Origin: Desulfocapsa sulfexigens DSM 10523 | Lineage (GTDB): Bacteria; Desulfobacterota; Desulfobulbia; Desulfobulbales; Desulfocapsaceae | Length of the DNA stretch: 32,000 nucleotides | Direction of reading: 5' to 3' | NCBI RefSeq assembly: GCF_000341395.1 | Contig: NC_020304.1 | Coordinates: 1,200,001 to 1,232,000 of the forward strand | Part shown: positions 1,396 through 30,546 of the stretch, one piece after another | How positions within the stretch are numbered: the first letter of the stretch is position 1 | Layout: each line of letters begins with the position of its first letter | Notes under the pieces: generated by a model | What the model was told of the DNA's origin: nothing | Databases searched by the model: none | The model's input: only the letters and a program-made list of their open reading frames with translations | Program-made: the position numbers and the translations under genes

Positions 1396-3546
1396 TTATT
1401 TCCTCCGTATCTCCCAGCAATGATGAATTCTACTGTTTCTGGCAAAATCAAGGGGAATGGAGTCCCTGCTGATATTACGGATTGCGTAATACTTGTCAAT
1501 GGATTCATCCATCTGAAAGCGTCTGAAATTGGTTGAAAAAATGAGCACCCCACCCTCTGCCAGACGGGCAACGGATTTTTCAATCAGGAGGCGGTGATCG
1601 CGTTGCACATCAAAGACCCGGCTTTCTTTTTTGGTATTGGAGAAGGTGGGAGGATCAACAAAGATCAGATCGTACTCCTTTCTATCCTCCGCCAACCATT
1701 TAAGGCAATCGGCCTGTATCGTTTCATGAGCCAAGCCGCCAAAACCATTCAGAGCAAGATTCATCCGAGCCCAGTTAAGATAGGTTGGTGAAAGATCCAC
1801 GGTGGTTGTGGATTCCGCTCCACCTACAGCTGCGTGAACGGTAGCCGTTCCCGTGTAGGCAAAAAGATTGAGGAAACGTTTCCCCTTAGCTTCCCTCGCA
1901 ATTTTCATACGAATATTGCGATGATCAAGAAATATTCCGGTATCCAGATAATCGGTGAAATTCACCAGTAGAAAGCAGTCCCCTTCCCGGACGGTGTACA
2001 TTTTTTTATGGGTTGCCTGTTTTTGATATTGGGCCTTCCCCTTCTGTTTGCGCCTGGTTTTTAAAAATACCCGGTCTCTGCGTACCCCAAAGAGGTGCCG
2101 AACCTGATGCAACACCTGCTGAAAACGTCTCTGTGCTATTTTTTCATCTACCGTATCGGGTGCAGCATACTCCTGAACCTGAATCCACTTTTCATAGAGA
2201 TCCACCGAAACATTAAATTCCGGAAGGTCTTTATCATACACCCGGAAACAGTGTACCCCATCACGTTCTGCCCACTTAAGAAACTTTTTGGCATTTTTAC
2301 GAAGCCTGTTACCAAACTCTATTCCTTCCTCGGGGCCATTATCCACAGCAAGCTGCCATTGAAACGCCGGTGTATCCTCTTCATGCACTGTGCCACAAAA
2401 CAATCGGCAGTTAATGGAGCCATTATACATGCGGTGAGTCCTTTCCCACTTGATCCCCATCCTGTCACCGAAATCGGGATTGGAGGTAAAGACTCCTATC
2501 TGCCAGTCGTACAGTTCCTGTTTACTTATACGCCCCAAAGCCCTGTGAAGCTGTTCCGCCTGATCTGTTTCGGAAAGCCGCTCGCCATAGGGTGGATTGA
2601 CCACCATGATCCCCCTGGCAGCAGGACGCCGCAGATTAGCAAGTTGTCCCTGTTTAATAACGATCTTGTCATCATAACAGGCATTTTCGACATTGCTCCT
2701 TGCCACGGCCACGGCACGGGGATCGGCATCATAACCAAGCATTAGAGGCCACTCCCGTTCAAGTCCGGCTTCCTCCCGCTCGATGGCCTCATCCACCAGT
2801 CTGTCCCAAAGAGTCCGATCGTGCATCTTCCAGCCACTAAAGCCAAAATAACTGCGGGACAGTCCGGGTGCTGCATCACCAAAAATCAAGGCTGCCTCGA
2901 TAAGGATGGTTCCCGAGCCACACATCGGGTCAAGAAACATGACATCCTTTGATATCCCAGGTTTCCATCCGGCAAGTGCAACAATGGCTGCCGCCAGACT
3001 CTCCTTCAATGGAGCAAGACTTCCACCCTCCTTCCGATATCCGCGTCGATGCAGACTCTCGCCACTTAAGTCGAGGGCGATTGTGGCCTGATCCTTGTAA
3101 ATGGAGACTCGAATCCTGATCCCAGGACGTACCACCGATACATTTGGTCGCTCATTATGAGTCTTACGAAACTGATCCACCACAGCATCCTTTACCCGGA
3201 GCGCCGCAAATCCACTATGCTGTATGGCCGACAGATGAAGAGTGCAATCCACGGCAAAGGTCGTCTCAATATCCATGTGCTGGCCCCAGTCAACCTTCAA
3301 TGCCCCCTCATACAGAGCATCTTCATCGGGGGCTGGAAATTCGGCAAGCGTGAGAAACACCCGGGAAGCATAGCGTGACCAGAGACAGGCCCGGTAGGCA
3401 GCTTCAAGATCACCCTTCCAGCTCACCAACCCCCTTGCCTGGTCCACATCAATTCCGCCAAGATCCTTTGCTTCCTGGCACACCAAATCTTCAAGGCCAG
3501 CTGCACAACTTATTGCAAGACTATATATTTTTTTATTTTCCATCAT
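1396..3546 (-). CDS. rlmL: Bifunctional 23S rRNA m2G2445 / m7G2069 methyltransferase RlmKL (THUMP plus two SAM-methyltransferase domains)
   Basis: 716 aa, collinear with E. coli RlmL as I recall it. Shared motifs are DPMCGSGT, NPPYGERL, FTDYLDTGIFLDHR, DPPTFSN, FDVQRDH and FARN..IHHCW. Confidence 0.92.
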   Translation of the reverse strand: MMENKKIYSLAISCAAGLEDLVCQEAKDLGGIDVDQARGLVSWKGDLEAAYRACLWSRYASRVFLTLAEFPAPDEDALYEGALKVDWGQHMDIETTFAVDCTLHLSAIQHSGFAALRVKDAVVDQFRKTHNERPNVSVVRPGIRIRVSIYKDQATIALDLSGESLHRRGYRKEGGSLAPLKESLAAAIVALAGWKPGISKDVMFLDPMCGSGTILIEAALIFGDAAPGLSRSYFGFSGWKMHDRTLWDRLVDEAIEREEAGLEREWPLMLGYDADPRAVAVARSNVENACYDDKIVIKQGQLANLRRPAARGIMVVNPPYGERLSETDQAEQLHRALGRISKQELYDWQIGVFTSNPDFGDRMGIKWERTHRMYNGSINCRLFCGTVHEEDTPAFQWQLAVDNGPEEGIEFGNRLRKNAKKFLKWAERDGVHCFRVYDKDLPEFNVSVDLYEKWIQVQEYAAPDTVDEKIAQRRFQQVLHQVRHLFGVRRDRVFLKTRRKQKGKAQYQKQATHKKMYTVREGDCFLLVNFTDYLDTGIFLDHRNIRMKIAREAKGKRFLNLFAYTGTATVHAAVGGAESTTTVDLSPTYLNWARMNLALNGFGGLAHETIQADCLKWLAEDRKEYDLIFVDPPTFSNTKKESRVFDVQRDHRLLIEKSVARLAEGGVLIFSTNFRRFQMDESIDKYYAIRNISRDSIPLDFARNSRIHHCWEIRRK

Positions 3547-3556
3547 AGGGGTAAGG

Positions 3557-3841
3557 CTACTGTTGTTTGAAAAAATTCACAATAGTGATAGACGGGCGAT
3601 CTCACAAAACATCCAATCCAAATAAAGTCCTCTTCCCCGCCTTTTTTAAGGTCTCGTTCACCACCCGGCGAACATCTACAAGACATCAGCGCCCTTGAGG
3701 ATTGTTCGTTTCACAGTTGCAGTTACCGGCCTTTGACTCAGCAATAATCTGCTCCAAAATGGTTGATTTCCCGTGTACAAGTACATCTTTTTCCAAAGCA
3801 TCTGCCGTATGATTATGGCAATAACAAATTAATCCATCCAT
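3557..3841 (-). CDS. Candidate selenoprotein: small BFD-like / CopZ-N-terminal-like Cys-rich (putative Fe-S or metal-binding) protein, 94 aa with Sec at codon 52
   Basis: Not in the ORF track. ATG at 3841-3839 follows AAGGGTG (possible SD). The first 51 codons read MDGLICYCHNHTADALEKDVLVHGKSTILEQIIAESKAGNCNCETNNPQGR, then TGA at 3688-3686. The same frame stays open for 42 more codons (CLVDVRRVVNETLKKAGKRTFIWIGCFVDRPSITIVNFFKQQ) to TAG at 3559-3557, 10 nt before the rlmL start. A SECIS-like hairpin begins 12 nt after the TGA. If the TGA is a true stop, the product is a 51-aa protein (3686..3841). Confidence 0.55.
3656..3673 (-). promoter_or_regulatory. SECIS-like stem-loop downstream of the in-frame UGA
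   Basis: The mRNA reads UGA-UGUCUUGUAGAU-GUUCGCC-GGGU-GGUGAAC. That is a 7-bp stem (one G.U pair) and a 4-nt G/U loop. Counting from the U of UGA, the loop occupies nt 23-26, the position of the conserved G23/U24 loop bases in the E. coli fdhF SECIS. Confidence 0.5.
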
Positions 3842-4411
3842 TTTCAACACCCTTTCAGTTCTATTTATCCATTGAAAACATATTCTTTGATTATACTCTA
3901 GCCTTGTCCGAGAATACAGGAGATTGCATTCCCCCTTCGTATTTCTGGGAGTTTTCTTTTAGCAAACCAACATCGGCTCCTGAATTCATACGTCAGAGGT
4001 GAGGCAAAAAGAGACCTCCTGTAGTAAAATGTACTATAGCATAGGAAGCTGGCATGAAGATAAACTCACAGAATCTTAGGCCACATTGCCCCCCCCAGCT
4101 GAAAGGAGAATCCCTGAAAAAAAAGAAAGCAAACTTGACATGAATTATACCAACAAGGTAGAAAGATAATAATAGCGTCGCTTCACTCCGACACGTGTGG
4201 CCGGAATCTCCAGACTGGAAGGCCGATTTCGTCTGGAATAAATAGCCGGATTCAGTGGAATACGAACCAGCGCCTAAGGACAAAACCAACCTGCTCTCAA
4301 GGATAATTTGTCGATTATTCAGTCATTTACCTTGGCAACCTCCCCTTACTCTGCTATCCTTAACTGCGACCTAAGTTTTTTTTTGGACTGTTTTTATAGG
4401 TAATATTTCTT

Positions 4412-5143
4412 ATGGACGCATTAAGTAACAAGGAATTAACGACGTTATTGGAAATTATATCAGACTGCATTACTTGTGATTCTATTGAGACATTTTTTAC
4501 AATTATATCGAAAGTTGAAAACCTACTGCAGTATGGTCACATTGTTTTTCTTTCATCCCAAAAAGATTTTCCCAGCAGTCTACCCTCGATACAAGAAATC
4601 AATGTGTCCTATCCAATTGAATGGACAAATATATACCGAACTCAAAATTATACCGCTGTAGATCCTATAATAAGTTCAGGAGAAACAGGTTTACTGTTCT
4701 GGAAAGACATCTATGACAGAACACCTCCTGATCAAGACTTTTATTCCCAAGCTCAATCCTTTGGATTAACGAATGGATTTTCTCATATAATTTCTACACC
4801 CAAAATATTCGGATTAATGTCTGTAGCAGGAAATGAGCTTGTTGACTCATCCCGCAGTAGAACTATTATCAATTACCTTGCCCCACATTTTCATCAACTG
4901 GTACAACACCTAATAAAAAAACAGGCAAGAGAGAGCATGCCTAAAATAACACCACGTGAACGAGAAGTATTAATTTGGGCAATGGAAGGCAAATCAAATT
5001 GGGAAATATCTGTCATATTGGGAATTAGCCAGGAAAGCATAAAGGGGCATATTTCAAAAATCCTGAATAAATTAGATGCGAGCAATCGTGCTCATGCGGT
5101 GGCTATTGCTATGCAGGCCAATCTTTTATTTCCATATGGGTGA
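4412..5143 (+). CDS. LuxR-family quorum-sensing regulator (N-terminal autoinducer-binding domain plus C-terminal GerE/LuxR HTH)
   Basis: EWTNIYRTQNYTAVDP....FW places W, Y, D, P and W with the spacing of TraR W57/Y61/D70/P71/W85. FGLTNGFS supplies the conserved Gly. The C-terminus ITPREREVLIWAMEGKSNWEISVILGISQESIKGHISKILNKLDASNRAHAV is a typical LuxR HTH. Confidence 0.85.
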   Translation: MDALSNKELTTLLEIISDCITCDSIETFFTIISKVENLLQYGHIVFLSSQKDFPSSLPSIQEINVSYPIEWTNIYRTQNYTAVDPIISSGETGLLFWKDIYDRTPPDQDFYSQAQSFGLTNGFSHIISTPKIFGLMSVAGNELVDSSRSRTIINYLAPHFHQLVQHLIKKQARESMPKITPREREVLIWAMEGKSNWEISVILGISQESIKGHISKILNKLDASNRAHAVAIAMQANLLFPYG

Positions 5144-5793: not shown

Positions 5794-6447
5794 CTAAATT
5801 ACCATTTGTTCGATATTTAACTGCTCCAAATCTTGAAACCATGCCAAAAGAGCTGGCTTCTTGGTTGCTGTAAATTTCTCAAATGCTGTCCAGGTTGATA
5901 TCGCAGCTATGGCAACAACGCCATCGGGCATAGTCACCGCTGGAGCCACAGCAGTGCAAGGCATACCCAGTAAGTTCAATAACCGAAAAAAGTGATTTGA
6001 GACAACCATATAGACAGTATCTTTATCGTTACTTCTACACCAATTATAAAAGGCTTTTTCCAAAGCCATCACAATTGGAAACATCCCATACTTCGTTGAA
6101 ACTTGACTTTTTCTGAGGTCATTTGCAATACAGAATCGTGTTACTTCAATCGTTTGTGGTGTCTTCTGGATTTTGTGATTTCCAATAATTTCTTTGAATT
6201 CATTTTCAATCATGAATCGGTCGGTAGGGAAATGGATTCGCAAGCATGCGATCAAGCGATTTTTTGCAAAAACTCCGACCTGTAGACATTTGCTGTCATA
6301 AGAATCAATTTCCTTTTTATTTTCATTACCAGAAACCCATTTAAGTTCTTCAGCAAAGACTTGATAGCGCAATCGAAAGGCCGCGTTTTTCTCTTCTTTC
6401 GTGGTTAAAGTTTGCATGCGTAAATCTTCTTCAAAAAAGTATCCCAT
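5794..6447 (-). CDS. LuxI-family acyl-homoserine-lactone synthase (autoinducer synthase-type GNAT)
   Basis: FRLRYQVFAEELKW...KEIDSYD...RI...EVTRF reproduces the LuxI signature R-x3-F-x5-W, E-x-D-x2-D, R and E-x-(S/T)-R. SD GGAGAT precedes the ATG. It lies convergent to a LuxR with an intact AHL-binding signature. Confidence 0.72.
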   Translation of the reverse strand: MGYFFEEDLRMQTLTTKEEKNAAFRLRYQVFAEELKWVSGNENKKEIDSYDSKCLQVGVFAKNRLIACLRIHFPTDRFMIENEFKEIIGNHKIQKTPQTIEVTRFCIANDLRKSQVSTKYGMFPIVMALEKAFYNWCRSNDKDTVYMVVSNHFFRLLNLLGMPCTAVAPAVTMPDGVVAIAAISTWTAFEKFTATKKPALLAWFQDLEQLNIEQMVI

Positions 6448-25075: not shown

Positions 25076-26365
25076 TCACATAGGCACAATCAGCTTATTC
25101 GTGTCTTCGTTCCAGGTCACAACCAGATACCAGACCATCATTATAAAAGCGATCATGGCAATTGTTCCGCCATATCCCATAACATCCGGAAGGTAAACAT
25201 AGGATCCAAGAGCACCTGATTTTTCCAGGTTTATTTCGTCTGCTCCAAAATTCTGGAACCATTTAGTCATAAGTGAATTAGATACGGCAAAGAATGGTAC
25301 AACCATTATCAATTTGACCTGACCTTCACCAACACGCCACAGGGTACCTGAACCACAACCACCTGCGAGCATGGCGCCAAGACCAAAAATAAAACCACCA
25401 ACAATTGATCCCCAACCAAAAGTTCCACGCACATAGTTTATAGGAGCCAAAACAGACTCCCCACCATGAGCAACAGGCACAGCATACTTTAATACGGCAC
25501 CACCGATTGCAAGAAGTAGAATAGACAATGCAACGGACTTCGCCAGGGTACAATCACCTGTCATATGAGGCTCACGAAAGCCCTGAACCATACACCAGCG
25601 TCCACGCTGCATAGTGTACCCAAGTCCTGCCGCAATCAGGATTATACCAGAAAGAGATGCAATATATTCCTCACTCTTATCACCTGCCCAACTAAAAGCC
25701 CCTTCCTCAAATCCAGCATACGCATACGCTGCCCATACGAGCGCTGCAAGGGCACCTATTGCAAGTATTGACTGAAGAGCATTTGGAACATTAATAGTTC
25801 CAGATCCACCGTCACCCCAGGAGATGTACTCCATCTCCATATAGAGAAGTTTCAATCCTAATAATACGCCAGCTACCAGGCCTATCCACATGGTAAAACC
25901 ATTTGCTGCAAGGTTTCCAATGGCATTGTACATACCACCCACATTACAACCACCGGCAAGAGTTGCACCTACACCCATGAGAATACCGGCAATAACCGCC
26001 TTTACCATTTCACGATAGGGTGGAATGCGAAGCGCAAAATCCCTTCCAAGACAGGCTGAAATAAAAGCCCCTCCAATAAAACCAATACCAATGACGGATC
26101 CAGTATTCCCCATAAGTGCAGCTGGTGCCTCATCGTACAAACCCAGCAGTCCACTTTCAGCACCTATAATGGTATTTAATCCATAAATGATCCAGTCTCC
26201 CCAGTTACGAATCGCTCCAACAGCACCCCATGGGCGCCACCATGCCATTATCAAAATTGAAAGAAACGCAACAATAACCCCAGCTATGGTGGCATTCCAT
26301 TCTGATTTACAACAGGTTTTGTAAAGATCCTTCACCTTACTCCCAATTACACTTTCCTCACTCAT
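25076..26365 (-). CDS. YeeE/YedE-family inner-membrane sulfur-compound (thiosulfate-type) transporter
   Basis: A 429-aa polytopic membrane protein. The two family-typical Cys motifs are LAGGCNVGG and LAGGCGSGT. A strong SD (GGGGAGGAG) is present, and the gene is divergent from tusA. Confidence 0.85.
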   Translation of the reverse strand: MSEESVIGSKVKDLYKTCCKSEWNATIAGVIVAFLSILIMAWWRPWGAVGAIRNWGDWIIYGLNTIIGAESGLLGLYDEAPAALMGNTGSVIGIGFIGGAFISACLGRDFALRIPPYREMVKAVIAGILMGVGATLAGGCNVGGMYNAIGNLAANGFTMWIGLVAGVLLGLKLLYMEMEYISWGDGGSGTINVPNALQSILAIGALAALVWAAYAYAGFEEGAFSWAGDKSEEYIASLSGIILIAAGLGYTMQRGRWCMVQGFREPHMTGDCTLAKSVALSILLLAIGGAVLKYAVPVAHGGESVLAPINYVRGTFGWGSIVGGFIFGLGAMLAGGCGSGTLWRVGEGQVKLIMVVPFFAVSNSLMTKWFQNFGADEINLEKSGALGSYVYLPDVMGYGGTIAMIAFIMMVWYLVVTWNEDTNKLIVPM

Positions 26366-26594: not shown

Positions 26595-26708
26595 TCTGAC
26601 TATTATCTATTCAGTGTTGACCATATAACACTGAGCAAAATTATTTAAGACTAAGAAAACAATTACGTTTATCAGTCTATCGAAACAATATTTCCAGGAG
26701 GAAAACCC

Positions 26709-26966
26709 ATGAGTGACCTTAAAGTTGCCGCAGACGGAATTGCAGTAGCAGCCACACTTGATGCAAAGGGATTGAGTTGTCCCATGCCTCTTCTTCGTAC
26801 AAAAAAAGAAATAGGAAAAATCGCCTCCGGTGAAGTTCTCCAGATAGATGGTACCGACCCAGGTTCCAGAAATGATCTTCCAGGCTGGTGTAGTCGTGCT
26901 GGACATGAGTACCTCGGCGAAAAAGAGCAGTCAGGTTATATTAGCTTTTTTGTAAAAAAAGGTTGA
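26709..26966 (+). CDS. tusA: TusA/SirA-family sulfur-carrier protein
   Basis: 85 aa with the LDAKGLSCPMPLLRTKKEI CPxP active-site motif. SD is AGGAGG. Confidence 0.9.
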   Translation: MSDLKVAADGIAVAATLDAKGLSCPMPLLRTKKEIGKIASGEVLQIDGTDPGSRNDLPGWCSRAGHEYLGEKEQSGYISFFVKKG

Positions 26967-27026
26967 TTGTAACTCGTAACTGTTTCTTGTGTTTACTAAA
27001 AAATAAGCAATTTCCTGGAGGATACT

Positions 27027-27344
27027 ATGTCCAAAAGTCTCGGAATATTCGTGACCAACCCTGACCAGTTCAAACATGTAATGGGTATAACAAAAGCTGC
27101 TAAAGCTAAGGGTTCCAATGTAAAGGTATTTTTTACCTGGGATGCTACTCATAACGCAAAAAAAGAAGCTGGTTTTCCTGAGCTTTGTAAAATAGCTGAT
27201 GATGTTTCTATCTGTGTGGATAGTTACAAAAACATGGGATATGATATTGATGATATTCCTGAGGGTCTTGAAGCCAAAAAAATGGCCACTCAGGCTCAGC
27301 ATGGAATAATCATTGAAGATTACGATTGTTACTTAAGTTTATAG
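27027..27344 (+). CDS. DsrE/DsrF-superfamily small protein (DsrE-like)
   Basis: 105 aa. The N-terminal LGIFVTN...AKAKGSNVKVFF and the Cys in SICVDSY resemble the DsrE fold and active-site arrangement. SD is GGAGGA. Confidence 0.65.
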   Translation: MSKSLGIFVTNPDQFKHVMGITKAAKAKGSNVKVFFTWDATHNAKKEAGFPELCKIADDVSICVDSYKNMGYDIDDIPEGLEAKKMATQAQHGIIIEDYDCYLSL

Positions 27345-27353
27345 GAGTTTCCC

Positions 27354-27665
27354 ATGGAATATAATAAAGTATGTCTGATGTACCGCAACCAGGATTGTAC
27401 CGTTGATGGTATCCGTTCAGCTCTTGGGCTTGCTGTTGAAAACATGTACGCATATGGTTGCGTAATGGATGAGCCTAAAATGGAAAAATTCAATGAGCTC
27501 CAGGCTGAGTCTCTTGAAATGCTCCGTGATATGGAAGGTGATGTTTTTGCAACAACAACCGCAAACTGCGAACTCAATGATCTTGAGCCTATCACTATTG
27601 AAGAATTAGGTGAAAAACTTCGCGACATGACCCATATAATCCCTTACGGCATTATAAAAGCTTAG
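27354..27665 (+). CDS. Conserved-hypothetical small protein (103 aa), weakly DsrE/F-like, part of the tusA operon
   Basis: SD TAGGAG is present and spacing from the upstream gene is tight (9 nt). KVCLMYRN...DGIRSALGLAVEN.YAYGCVMD is reminiscent of the DsrE/F N-terminal beta-alpha-beta unit. Confidence 0.6.
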   Translation: MEYNKVCLMYRNQDCTVDGIRSALGLAVENMYAYGCVMDEPKMEKFNELQAESLEMLRDMEGDVFATTTANCELNDLEPITIEELGEKLRDMTHIIPYGIIKA

Positions 27666-29415: not shown

Positions 29416-30546
29416 ATGACACTTAATTGCACAGTATCACGATCCGATTTAATGGAAGGTCTGAACAGTCTTCAAAACATAACCAATAAGCGCGTAACCC
29501 TTGCCATACTCTCAAATATTCTTATTGCAGCAGAAGAAGATGGGATTGTGCTCACAGGAACTGACCTTGAGGTAGGATTACGTATAAAAATTCCTGCTGA
29601 AATTAATGGTCAAGGAATACTCACATTACCTAGTAGAAAAATTTTTGAAATTGTCCGGGAATCCGGATCAGAAAAAATAACTATCCAGGAAACAGAAAAT
29701 AGCTGGGTTGTTATATCAGCAGGATTAAGCACCTATAACCTTGCAGGTTTAGCAAGTGATGAATTTCCAGAATTTCCGAAATTCGATGAAAATAATTTTG
29801 TTTCCTTTGAGGCAGGCATATTTTCAGACCTTATTGATAAAGTTATATTTTCTGTAGCAAACGAAGAGGAGAATGCCTATTCCCTCACCAATGTCCTTTT
29901 TGAGAAAGAAAAAAAGGATGAACGATCTTATTTACGAATGATATCATCAGATGGCCATCGTCTTTCCATAATGGAAAAAGATGTGGTTGCTGATATAGAT
30001 CTTCTTACTATTCAGGAAGGAACATTAATTCCAAAAAAAGGTGTTCAGGAATTAAAAAAATTCTGTGATAGTCGTGATAGTGTTGAAATATCTTTTGAAA
30101 AAGAAAAACTTATAGCGAAAGATAATGAATCTGTAATGGTCATTCGTTTAAAACAGGGTGAATTTCCACAATACAGAGCAATTGTCAACGCAGTTCAACT
30201 TGAAAATAAAATAACCATAGAAAGAAGACCATTTCTTGATTCTCTGAAACGAATTAATCTCTTTACAGAAGATATATTTCATACAATTCAACTTGAAATT
30301 GAAAATGGCAAGATGATTTTGAGTTCGCAGAATGTAGATCTCGGAAACGCTAAAGACATACAGGATATTCAATACGATGGTGAACCTTTGCTTTTGGGCT
30401 TTAATTGTCGTTATTTTATAGAAACTCTTCAGGTTATGGAATGTGATAGTGTGGATGCATACATTAATTCTAATAATAGTCCCTGTCTTATGAAATCAGA
30501 CAGGGATGAAGGATTTTTAAGTATTATAATGCCCATGCAGTTATAG
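29416..30546 (+). CDS. dnaN: DNA polymerase III beta sliding clamp
   Basis: 376 aa with the typical clamp N-terminus (...SRSDLMEGLNSLQNITNKR.TLAILSNILIAAEEDGIVLTGTDLEVG) and the C-terminal MPMQL. Confidence 0.92.
   Translation: MTLNCTVSRSDLMEGLNSLQNITNKRVTLAILSNILIAAEEDGIVLTGTDLEVGLRIKIPAEINGQGILTLPSRKIFEIVRESGSEKITIQETENSWVVISAGLSTYNLAGLASDEFPEFPKFDENNFVSFEAGIFSDLIDKVIFSVANEEENAYSLTNVLFEKEKKDERSYLRMISSDGHRLSIMEKDVVADIDLLTIQEGTLIPKKGVQELKKFCDSRDSVEISFEKEKLIAKDNESVMVIRLKQGEFPQYRAIVNAVQLENKITIERRPFLDSLKRINLFTEDIFHTIQLEIENGKMILSSQNVDLGNAKDIQDIQYDGEPLLLGFNCRYFIETLQVMECDSVDAYINSNNSPCLMKSDRDEGFLSIIMPMQL

What the first reader, a model, noticed from the sequence alone, without database searches (positions are those of the whole stretch)
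3557..3841. Unannotated candidate selenoprotein (CxC...CxC...NPxG-R-U-C) with a SECIS-like hairpin, directly upstream of rlmL
**ORF.** A minus-strand ORF absent from the track starts at ATG 3841 and encodes MDGLICYCHNHTADALEKDVLVHGKSTILEQIIAESKAGNCNCETNNPQGR. It then reaches TGA at 3688-3686.

**Four features argue for Sec read-through rather than termination:**
1. The frame stays open for 42 more codons and ends at TAG 3559-3557, only 10 nt before the rlmL start. That gives tidy operon packing in place of a 140-nt gap.
2. The codon right after the TGA is Cys, giving U-C. As far as I remember, homologous BFD-like / CopZ-N-terminal-type Cys-rich domains carry NPxGxCC, so Sec would replace a conserved Cys.
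3. Twelve nt after the UGA there is a hairpin GUUCGCC-GGGU-GGUGAAC (3673-3656). Its G/U loop falls at nt 23-26 from the UGA, the geometry of the E. coli fdhF SECIS.
4. A thioredoxin-like gene sits in the same operon, which gives a redox context.

Standard gene callers would miss or truncate this gene.
Basis: partly seen in the sequence, partly recalled or inferred. Interest (0 to 1): 0.8.

Follow-up and report, generated by a model that had tools for sequence, protein, structure and literature searches.

The report
Small selenocysteine iron-sulfur protein gene
This is a real but already catalogued kind of bacterial selenoprotein gene: a 79-residue iron-sulfur-type protein whose in-frame TGA is read as selenocysteine, which public annotation of this genome cuts short at 51 residues.

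Summary
The window comes from Desulfocapsa sulfexigens DSM 10523. The minus-strand ORF (ATG 3841), the in-frame TGA (3688-3686), the following Cys codon and the hairpin at 3673-3656 are all as described.

One claim is wrong. A second in-frame TGA at 3604-3602 ends the frame 27 codons later, not 42. The product is 79 aa, and a 55-nt gap precedes rlmL.

Comparative evidence for Sec decoding is strong:
- All 26 related genome loci and at least 88 metagenome loci keep TGA at this codon.
- The downstream peptide C-L-x-D-V-R-Q-V-V-N is conserved, and the real stop codon varies.
- Cys-containing homologues read NPxGxCC, with their first Cys aligned to the TGA.
- Synonymous sites are frozen only across the hairpin.
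- The hairpin meets the published bacterial SECIS consensus and shows compensatory changes.
- The organism is listed as a selenocysteine user.

The family is already published as "(2Fe-2S)-binding protein (CopZ family) form 1, GxUC". The find is therefore a correct re-detection plus an annotation fix (UWK_01062 is truncated).

The thioredoxin and rlmL context is not conserved. In half of the related genomes the gene lies in mercury-resistance-type operons. That hints at handling of thiol-binding metals, but this is untested.

The parts
3602..3841 (-). Full selenoprotein CDS: 79 codons (51 + Sec + 27) plus the stop codon. Product: MDGLICYCHNHTADALEKDVLVHGKSTILEQIIAESKAGNCNCETNNPQGR-U-CLVDVRRVVNETLKKAGKRTLFGLDVL
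   Evidence: Translation. Residues 1-51 are 100% identical to UWK_01062. Residues 53-79 are conserved as protein in 26 genome loci.
3686..3688 (-). In-frame TGA, codon 52, read as selenocysteine (motif G50-R51-U52-C53)
   Evidence: TGA in 27/27 sequences and in at least 88 metagenome members. It aligns with the first Cys of CC in Cys homologues.
3655..3674 (-). bSECIS-type hairpin. The stem has 7-8 bp (nt 15/16-22 pairing with nt 27-33/34, counted from the U of UGA). The 7-bp core is at 3656-3673.
   Evidence: MFE is -10.1 kcal/mol. Synonymous sites are frozen over codons 56-62. There are 34 compensatory cells in 89 sequences, a value reached by 0/500 shuffles.
3663..3666 (-). Apical loop GGGU (nt 23-26 after the U of UGA); AGGU in most relatives
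   Evidence: Loop is GGGU in 35 and AGGU in 34 of 88 metagenome members. G24, G25 and U26 are invariant in 27 close sequences.
3602..3604 (-).
   Evidence: At the equivalent place relatives use TAA, TAG or TGA, and similarity ends there.
3850..3855 (-). Shine-Dalgarno-like AAAGGG, 8 nt upstream of ATG 3841
   Evidence: Read from the sequence. Homologues align from this Met.

Best explanation
**What it is.** The locus encodes a 79-residue selenoprotein. [quoted passage not shown]

**Mechanism.** This follows the established bacterial Sec pathway and is inferred here, not shown.
1. The ribosome reaches UGA at codon 52.
2. An 8-bp hairpin with a (G/A)GGU loop starts 11-12 nt downstream. It recruits SelB-GTP-Sec-tRNA(Sec).
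3. Sec is inserted and translation continues for 27 more codons to the real stop at 3604-3602.

**Protein.** It is a stand-alone copy of the C-terminal, BFD-like [2Fe-2S] subdomain of the CopZ N-terminal domain.
- The four Cys invariant across Sec and Cys forms (C6, C8, C43, C53) are the likely cluster ligands. This is an inference.
- That leaves Sec52 next to a ligand. Together with the subfamily-conserved C41, it is the likely reactive or metal-binding pair.

**Role.** The role is not shown. The best guess from gene context in relatives is handling of thiol-binding metals or metalloids (Hg, As), or a linked redox step.
For: **Identity**
- The first 51 residues match UWK_01062 of Desulfocapsa sulfexigens DSM 10523 at 100%.

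**Recoding**
- All 30 close database homologues stop at ...NPxGR.
- In 26/26 related genome loci the codon is TGA. It is followed by conserved CLxDVRQVVNxxL..GK, then a variable TAA/TAG/TGA.
- At least 88 further members came from a metagenome pattern scan that contained no hairpin bases.
- Of the top 150 cluster representatives, at least 96 end exactly at the TGA, 11 continue with CC, and 5 continue with 'WC'. One W was checked and is a TGA.
- In an alignment with Cys forms, their first Cys of the CC pair falls on U52.

**RNA element**
- Synonymous entropy is at most 0.24 bits over codons 56-62. It is 0.5-2.1 bits at most other degenerate codons.
- The hairpin is 99.5% paired in close relatives.
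- In 89 diverse sequences it is 86.2% paired, against 36-64% in slid controls. There are 34 compensatory cells, reached by 0/500 shuffles.
- It meets all four criteria of the bSECIS consensus quoted in PMC13188914: a 4-nt loop, a 7-8 bp stem, G followed by G in the first loop positions, 19 nt from UGA to loop, and MFE of -10.1 kcal/mol.
- A distant Cys form (L030) lacks the hairpin. The protein sequence alone therefore does not force it.

**Sec use by the organism**
- D. sulfexigens DSM 10523 is listed among Sec-utilizing organisms with 14 known selenoproteins.

**Family**
- Listed in PMC13188914 and PMC9312934 and in Peng 2016 Table S3.

**Fold**
- Partial hit to NCBIfam CopZ_Nterm_CC.
- 2HU9 aligns at VCYC...C...NPSGRCC.
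- The AlphaFold model of a Cys form has pLDDT 95. Its top four Foldseek hits are CopZ-NT and P. aeruginosa Bfd.
Against: - There is no direct evidence of selenium incorporation.
- selA, selB, selC and selD could not be looked for: the window holds no tRNA and no sel genes. Sec use rests on a literature table.
- Rfam finds no SECIS family, even at E up to 10.
- The single-sequence fold is not better than shuffles (z = -0.64).
- The domain assignments are all below curated thresholds:
  - Pfam Fer2_BFD scores 17-20 bits against a cut-off of 26.
  - NF047645 scores 54 bits against a cut-off of 100.
  - Foldseek E-values are 0.5-1.8.
- [2Fe-2S] binding and the ligand set are inferred from homology and from my recollection of the 2HU9 paper, which could not be read.
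- The functional context is absent in this genome. It is seen in only 14 of 88 diverse metagenome loci.
Confidence: 0.92

Rival explanations
1. The TGA is an ordinary stop and the 51-residue peptide is the functional product. The conserved downstream stretch is then a non-coding RNA element, for example a stabilising or regulatory hairpin in the 3' UTR or in the leader of the next gene.
For: - Public annotation calls a 51-aa protein.
- The truncated peptide alone scores slightly better against Pfam Fer2_BFD (20.3 against 17.3 bits).
- The hairpin is strongly conserved at the nucleotide level.
- Sec insertion is usually inefficient, so some 51-aa product is probably made as well.
Against: - Codons 53-55 and 63-70 vary freely at synonymous sites while the amino acids are kept.
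- The frame stays open for 13-35 codons in about 115 sequences and ends in varied stop codons.
- TGA is never replaced by TAA or TAG.
- Cys homologues read straight through with ..CCLGxV...
- The truncated peptide would lack C53, one of four Cys invariant across the family.
Confidence: 0.04
2. The UGA is read through without selenocysteine. This could be near-cognate insertion of Trp or Cys, or a reassigned code. The result would be a 79-residue protein with W or C at position 52.
For: - Some automated gene calls translate the codon as W (P0038, P0040, P0061, P0121, P0163).
- Cys at this position is functional in homologues.
Against: - The one W call that was checked lies over a TGA (L031), so it most likely comes from a gene caller using a code in which TGA means Trp.
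- The neighbouring genes on that contig also carry in-frame TGA at known Sec positions: a DF family (seleno)protein and a MerP-like CxxU protein.
- Other ORFs of the window end at TGA under the standard code.
- A conserved SECIS-type hairpin with covariation is not needed for near-cognate read-through.
- The organism is a known Sec user.
Confidence: 0.03
3. The gene is a decaying remnant in this genome. In D. sulfexigens it has lost its original metal-resistance operon and is no longer expressed or useful.
For: - No MerR, MerC, MerA or ArsC gene lies anywhere in the 32-kb window, whereas 13 of 26 relatives have them next to the gene.
- No sigma-70-like promoter was found upstream on the minus strand.
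Against: - The ORF, the TGA, the hairpin and all six Cys/Sec positions are intact.
- The closest relatives without mer context (L001, L002, L004, L005, L007, L009, L015) keep the gene intact too.
- The promoter scan is a crude consensus match.
Confidence: 0.01

Closest known systems
[quoted passage not shown] Motif GxUC, CDD cd10141, representative WP_245779778.1. [quoted passage not shown] 2016.
   Same: It has the same motif (G50-R51-U52-C53). It has the same domain type (BFD-like / CopZ N-terminal). It is a predicted bacterial selenoprotein with Cys homologues.
   Different: No difference was found. The representative sequence could not be fetched for a direct alignment, so identity with that family rests on motif, domain and description.
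Csac_0668 family 2Fe-2S cluster-binding (seleno)protein (NCBIfam NF045877, 'form 2', motif CU)
   Same: It is a related CopZ-N-terminal-type domain, and its Sec lies in the same Cys-Cys pair.
   Different: - Sec is at the second position of the pair (CU), not the first (UC).
- The model is 161 positions long with an N-terminal part that is missing here.
- The score is 31 bits against a cut-off of 190.
Archaeoglobus fulgidus CopZ N-terminal domain (PDB 2HU9); NCBIfam NF047645 CopZ_Nterm_CC 'putative iron-sulfur cluster-binding metallochaperone'
   Same: It shares the C-terminal subdomain pattern VCYC...C...NPSGRCC. It is the top Foldseek hit for a Cys form of this family.
   Different: - CopZ-NT has an extra N-terminal four-Cys zinc subdomain of about 70-85 residues and is fused to an HMA copper-chaperone domain. 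Neither is present here.
- It has Cys, not Sec.
- It lacks the equivalent of C41.
- The score is 54 bits against a cut-off of 100, and only model positions 86-137 match.
Bacterioferritin-associated ferredoxin Bfd (Pfam PF04324; PDB 4E6K)
   Same: It is a small helical [2Fe-2S] fold that begins with C-x-C. Foldseek TM-scores are 0.55-0.71, and there is a weak Pfam hit.
   Different: - Bfd uses C-x-C...C-x2-C. Here the later Cys are arranged as C-x-C-x8-U-C.
- No bacterioferritin gene is nearby.
- The Pfam score is below the gathering threshold.
- No Sec form of Bfd proper is implied.
E. coli fdhF SECIS (the reference bacterial SECIS)
   Same: Both are a stem-loop starting about 11 nt after the UGA, inside the coding region. 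Unpaired G and U lie in the apical loop around nt 23-26. The fdhF details are from my own knowledge of the literature.
   Different: The sequence is different. No bulged U was seen in the upper stem. The loop is shifted by 1-2 nt. The Rfam models did not match.

Membership tests
Bacterial selenoprotein gene (Sec-UGA plus bSECIS) | In-frame UGA kept across orthologues and never swapped for another stop codon | tested here: met
   TGA in 27/27 close sequences and in at least 88 metagenome members. One low-coverage contig has AGA instead.
Bacterial selenoprotein gene (Sec-UGA plus bSECIS) | The reading frame downstream of the UGA is conserved as protein up to a real stop | tested here: met
   CLxDVRQVVN... 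is conserved, with synonymous variation at codons 53-55 and 63-70. Stops vary among TAA, TAG and TGA.
Bacterial selenoprotein gene (Sec-UGA plus bSECIS) | Cys-containing homologues have Cys aligned to the UGA | tested here: met
   12 Cys forms read NPxGxCCLGxV, and their first C aligns with U52.
Bacterial selenoprotein gene (Sec-UGA plus bSECIS) | bSECIS consensus: 3-9 nt loop; 4-16 bp stem; G in the first two loop positions followed by G/U; 16-37 nt from UGA to loop; MFE at most -7.5 kcal/mol (PMC13188914) | tested here: met
   Loop GGGU (4 nt), stem 7-8 bp, spacing 19 nt, MFE -10.1 kcal/mol. Covariation was seen.
Bacterial selenoprotein gene (Sec-UGA plus bSECIS) | The genome carries selA, selB, selC (tRNA-Sec) and selD | not testable with these tools
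From the literature: D. sulfexigens DSM 10523 is listed among Sec-utilizing organisms with 14 selenoproteins. A genome carrying an orthologue (L026, Ca. Desulfobulbus rimicarensis) has all Sec biosynthesis genes.
Bacterial selenoprotein gene (Sec-UGA plus bSECIS) | Selenium is shown in the protein (75Se labelling or mass spectrometry) | not testable with these tools
   This is an experiment.
(2Fe-2S)-binding protein (CopZ family) form 1 selenoprotein | GxUC motif | tested here: met
   G50-R51-U52-C53. The family motif is listed.
(2Fe-2S)-binding protein (CopZ family) form 1 selenoprotein | CopZ-like Fer2_BFD-like domain (cd10141) | tested here: inconclusive
   CDD is not available here. The proxies agree in direction but all fall below thresholds:
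- NF047645: 54 bits against a cut-off of 100.
- PF04324: 17-20 bits against a cut-off of 26.
- 2HU9 by sequence: E = 0.09.
- Foldseek: the top four hits are 2HU9 and Bfd, with E of 0.5-1.8.
NF045877 Csac_0668 family (form 2, CU) | Score above the curated cut-off, and Sec/Cys at the second position of the pair | tested here: not met
   31.3 bits against a cut-off of 190. The motif here is UC, not CU.
NF047645 CopZ_Nterm_CC metallochaperone / A. fulgidus CopZ-NT | Two-subdomain architecture with an N-terminal four-Cys zinc subdomain, and a score above the cut-off | tested here: not met
   Only model positions 86-137 of 138 match. The score is 54 bits against a cut-off of 100, and the protein is only 79 aa. 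Longer homologues (P0170, 133 bits) do meet it.
Bacterioferritin-associated ferredoxin (Bfd) | C-x-C...C-x2-C ligand pattern, the Pfam gathering score, and a link to bacterioferritin | tested here: not met
   The pattern here is C-x-C...C-x-C-x8-U-C. The score is 17-20 bits, below 26. No bfr gene is in the window.
mer (mercury resistance) operon component | Lies in an operon with merR and merT/C/P/A/B | tested here: not met
   - Window: no mer gene is present.
- Relatives: 12 of 26 genome loci have a MerR-like gene directly upstream, and several have MerC, MerA or MerT downstream.
- Diverse metagenome loci: only 14 of 88 have any mer- or ars-type gene nearby.

The most novel reading that the evidence does not exclude
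The short GxUC protein could be a cytosolic carrier for thiol-binding metals or metalloids. Sec52 and Cys41 would form a very high-affinity Hg(II)/As(III) site held against a [2Fe-2S] cluster. In Desulfobulbales mer operons it would take over the hand-off role of the missing N-terminal metal-binding domain (NmerA) of mercuric reductase MerA. In some operons (L031) three consecutive genes would be selenoproteins: DF family, GxUC, and MerP-like CxxU. The copy in D. sulfexigens would be an orphan of that system. I found no paper making this link in the library I could search. Two likely sources (Haft and Gwadz 2023; Haft and Tolstoy 2025) could not be read.
Probability: 0.2. Interest if true: 0.55.

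Novelty: already known. Interest (0 to 1): 0.3.

Why it matters
**Annotation.** UWK_01062 should be an 79-residue selenoprotein, not a 51-residue hypothetical protein. At least 96 of the 150 best cluster representatives of this family in a 1.8-billion-protein library are cut off at the same TGA. The mis-annotation is therefore systematic.

**Biology.** The family itself is already catalogued, so a specialist would not be surprised.

**Modest added value.**
- The SECIS analysis is clean. Synonymous sites are frozen exactly over the hairpin. A Val third base covaries with an Asn/Asp first base.
- Relatives place the gene inside mercury- and arsenic-resistance-type operons. This gives a testable lead to the function of a selenoprotein family with no known role.

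Tried and rejected
- **Rfam** (all families, E up to 10) on 3400-4100: no hit. I set this aside as uninformative because Rfam's bacterial SECIS models are narrow.
- **Single-sequence folding**: z = -0.64, not significant. The case rests on comparative data instead.
- **Exact look-up** of U- or X-containing 79-mers: U was not accepted, and the X version is not in the collection. Whether a corrected RefSeq record exists is therefore unknown.
I replaced it with a degenerate DNA pattern scan.
- **Papers not held**: Sazinsky 2007 (CopZ-NT structure), Haft and Gwadz 2023, Haft and Tolstoy 2025. The GOS paper cited as the family's source does not use the words CopZ, BFD or 2Fe-2S.
- **The thioredoxin 'redox context'** was rejected. 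The ORF at 1030-1389 scores below thresholds and is absent from all related loci.
- **A functional link to rlmL** was rejected, since it is shared only with L007 and L015.
- **The second TGA (3604-3602) as another Sec codon** was rejected. Relatives have TAA or TAG there, and conservation ends.
- **The other hairpin-bearing TGA in the window (12400)** was rejected. Its hairpin is weak (-7.7 kcal/mol), and it sits in an ATGA overlap between two efflux genes.

Full report
**1. What is in the sequence.**
- On the minus strand an ORF starts at ATG 3841. An AAAGGG Shine-Dalgarno-like motif lies 8 nt upstream.
- The ORF encodes MDGLICYCHNHTADALEKDVLVHGKSTILEQIIAESKAGNCNCETNNPQGR and reaches TGA at 3688-3686. 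The next codon is TGT (Cys).
That is wrong. A second in-frame TGA lies at 3604-3602.
- Read-through therefore adds 27 codons (CLVDVRRVVNETLKKAGKRTLFGLDVL) and gives a 79-residue product.
- A 55-nt gap separates it from the rlmL start at 3546.
- The hairpin GUUCGCC-GGGU-GGUGAAC is at 3673-3656, exactly as stated. One more pair (U15-G34) can extend it to 3674-3655.

**2. Source and current annotation.**
- The first 51 residues are 100% identical to UWK_01062 of Desulfocapsa sulfexigens DSM 10523 (AGF77634.1 / WP_015403330.1). Those records call it a 51-aa hypothetical protein, and UniRef calls it a BFD-like (2Fe-2S) protein.
- So the gene is annotated, but it is cut off at the TGA.

**3. Is the TGA a selenocysteine codon?**
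- All 30 close database homologues end at ...NPxG[RKH].
- I fetched 26 related loci from Desulfocapsa, Desulfobulbus and other Desulfobulbales genomes.
  - Every one has TGA at codon 52.
  - Each then has a conserved C-L-x-D-V-R-Q-V-V-N-x-x-L-x-K-x-G-K stretch.
  - Each ends about 27 codons later in TAA, TAG or TGA. Similarity ends there.
- A per-codon analysis of the 27 sequences shows two layers of constraint.
  - Codons 53-55 and 63-70 keep their amino acids while synonymous sites vary (0.7-2.1 bits). This indicates coding.
  - Codons 56-62 (DVRQVVN) show almost no synonymous change (at most 0.24 bits). This indicates an added nucleotide-level constraint.
- A profile search of 1.84 billion cluster representatives found 856 relatives. 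Among the best 150:
  - at least 96 end exactly at the TGA position;
  - 11 continue with 'CC';
  - 5 continue with 'WC';
  - 2 continue with 'RC'.
- One W that I checked (L031) is a TGA in the DNA. It most likely comes from a gene caller using a Trp-for-TGA code.
- One R (L032) is AGA, on a contig with 1x coverage.
- Aligning the Cys forms (NPSGxCCLGxV) places their first Cys on U52.
At least 88 of these are clear family members with the same downstream peptide and varied real stops.

**4. The RNA element.**
- In the 27 close sequences the hairpin is 99.5% paired. The few changes keep pairing (G.U to A-U, C-G to U.G, and one U-A to C-G double change).
- In 89 diverse sequences:
  - 86.2% of cells are paired, against 36-64% when partners are slid by 1-3 columns;
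  - 6 of 8 pairs show changes on both sides;
  - 34 cells are compensatory, a value reached by 0 of 500 shuffles.
- Pair 18-31 alternates between C-G (69 sequences) and U-A (14 sequences).
  - The third base of Val57 thus covaries with the first base of Asn/Asp62.
  - An RNA constraint is the most likely cause.
- The loop is GGGU or AGGU in 69 of 88 sequences.
- The element meets all four criteria of the bacterial SECIS consensus quoted in PMC13188914:
  - loop of 3-9 nt (here 4);
  - stem of 4-16 bp (here 7-8);
  - G in the first two loop positions followed by G or U;
  - 16-37 nt from UGA to loop (here 19), with MFE at most -7.5 (here -10.1 kcal/mol).
- Under a strict implementation of these criteria, only 0.9% of UGA triplets in the window pass.
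- Controls:
  - A distant Cys form (L030) has no such hairpin.
  - A Cys form closely related to Sec forms (P0049/L028) still has a perfect one. This looks like a recent Sec-to-Cys switch.
  - Rfam finds nothing, and the single-sequence fold is not exceptional. Neither weighs much against the comparative data.

**5. Sec machinery.**
- The window holds no tRNA and no sel genes. I could not scan the rest of the genome.
- Peng et al. [quoted passage not shown]
- The genome behind L026 (Ca. Desulfobulbus rimicarensis DR15) is reported to have all Sec biosynthesis genes.
- A Desulfocapsaceae genome ranks among the ten richest in selenoproteins.

**6. What the protein is.**
- NCBIfam gives partial, sub-threshold hits:
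  - CopZ_Nterm_CC, 'putative iron-sulfur cluster-binding metallochaperone': 54 bits against a cut-off of 100, covering model positions 86-137 only.
  - The Csac_0668 (seleno)protein family: 31 bits against a cut-off of 190.
- Pfam Fer2_BFD scores 17-20 bits, below its threshold of 26.
- The A. fulgidus CopZ N-terminal domain (2HU9) aligns as VCYC...C...NPSGRCC.
- An AlphaFold model of a natural Cys form has pLDDT 95.
  - Its four best PDB matches are 2HU9 and P. aeruginosa Bfd.
  - TM-scores are 0.55-0.71, although E-values are weak for so small a domain.
- The protein is thus a stand-alone copy of the BFD-like [2Fe-2S] subdomain. It lacks the zinc subdomain and the HMA domain of CopZ.
- Across Sec and Cys forms, C6, C8, C43 and C53 are invariant. 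C41 is nearly so, but is absent from 2HU9 and P0164.
- I infer that the four invariant Cys bind the cluster. This also fits my unverified recollection of the 2HU9 paper. Sec52, beside ligand C53, would then be the reactive residue, possibly paired with C41.

**7. Already known.**
[quoted passage not shown] They also list a form 2 (Csac_0668 family, motif CU).
- Peng et al. [quoted passage not shown]
- The window gene fits form 1. I could not confirm that this exact gene is among the 14 counted for D. sulfexigens.

**8. Gene context.**
  - The thioredoxin-like ORF (1030-1389) lies beyond rlmL.
  - It scores below Pfam thresholds.
  - It has no counterpart in any related locus.
- rlmL adjacency is shared only with L007 and L015.
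- Instead, 12 of 26 genome loci have a MerR-family regulator directly upstream on the same strand. It has a three-Cys pattern. Its best model is MerR, at 137 bits against a cut-off of 150.85.
- Several loci have more mer genes downstream:
  - MerC, at 215 bits, above its cut-off of 170;
  - a MerT-like protein;
  - a MerA that lacks the N-terminal metal-binding domain (544 bits, above its cut-off of 454).
- A thirteenth locus (L013) has MerC and MerA, but its upstream flank is missing.
- One Cys form sits just upstream of MerB and a glutaredoxin.
- L031 reads: MerR-like, DF family (seleno)protein with TGA, the GxUC gene with TGA, a MerP-like CxxU gene with TGA, and a SaoL/MerB-like gene.
- In 88 more diverse metagenome loci, only 14 show mer- or ars-type neighbours such as ACR3, ArsC, ArsR, MerR, MerP or MerT.
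- The D. sulfexigens window has none.
- The metal-handling idea is therefore a lead, not a finding.

**9. Verdict.**
- The selenoprotein interpretation is strongly supported (about 0.92).
- The kind is already known.
- The practical outcome is an annotation correction, plus a context-based functional lead.

Noticed in passing
L003, L006, L008, L010-L014, L016-L019, L025 (genome loci); L030: In half of the related genomes the GxUC gene lies in a mercury-resistance-type operon. MerR-like is directly upstream. MerC, MerT-like and an NmerA-less MerA lie downstream. A Cys form precedes MerB. ArsC is nearby in L014, L018 and L020.
   Followed up: partly
L031:3-2138: One metagenome contig carries three consecutive genes with in-frame TGA at Sec-type positions: a DF family (seleno)protein (GFG-U), the GxUC protein, and a MerP-like HMA protein (GMTCNL-U). 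They are flanked by a MerR-like gene and a SaoL/MerB-like gene.
   Followed up: partly
L028:512-721 (P0049): A Cys form (TGT in place of TGA) still has a perfect SECIS-type hairpin at the same distance. Its nearest relatives (L094, L100, L124) are Sec forms. This looks like a recent Sec-to-Cys switch with a leftover SECIS.
   Followed up: partly
L032 (P0071); also P0101: Two representatives have Arg at the Sec position. In L032 the codon is AGA, one base from TGA, and the hairpin is intact. The contig has about 1x coverage, so this may be a sequencing error or a rare real variant.
   Followed up: partly
window 3656-3673 and alignment A6, columns 18 and 31: The third base of Val57 (GUU/GUC) covaries with the first base of residue 62 (AAC Asn / GAC Asp). 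The SECIS stem therefore appears to drive an amino-acid choice in the protein.
   Followed up: yes
P0038, P0040, P0061, P0121, P0163: Some public gene calls show Trp at the Sec position. In L031 the codon is TGA, so these calls probably came from callers using a Trp-for-TGA code. Such entries hide selenoproteins in protein databases.
   Followed up: partly
window 4412-5143 (+) and 5794-6447 (-): A LuxR-type regulator (autoinducer-binding plus GerE domains) and a LuxI-type autoinducer synthase lie just upstream of the selenoprotein gene. Acyl-homoserine-lactone signalling genes are unusual in a sulfur-disproportionating member of the Desulfobulbales.
   Followed up: no
window 3842-4411, including ORF 3993-4289 (-): A 570-nt stretch between the selenoprotein gene and luxR holds only a 98-codon TTG-start ORF. 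That ORF has no family hit and no counterpart in related loci. No minus-strand promoter match was found for the selenoprotein gene.
   Followed up: partly
window 25076-26365 (-) and 26607-27628 (-): A YeeE/YedE-type sulfur transport protein (PF04143, two repeats) lies next to three small ORFs (99, 123 and 99 aa) with no Pfam hit. YeeE/YedE is itself a listed selenoprotein family and is linked to selenium metabolism. No in-frame TGA was looked for here.
   Followed up: no
window 12400 (-): This is the only other TGA in the window with a long open frame on both sides and a hairpin passing the bSECIS filter. It is the ATGA overlap between the HlyD-type and AcrB-type efflux genes. The hairpin is weak (-7.7 kcal/mol), and I judged it a chance match.
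   Followed up: yes
window 3542-3571 (-): A sigma-70-like match (TTCAAA, 18-nt spacer, TATGAT) lies in the gap between the selenoprotein stop and the rlmL start. rlmL may therefore have its own promoter rather than being co-transcribed.
   Followed up: no
window 29416-30546 (+): The DNA polymerase III beta subunit gene (dnaN) is present, so the window may lie near the chromosomal replication origin.
   Followed up: no
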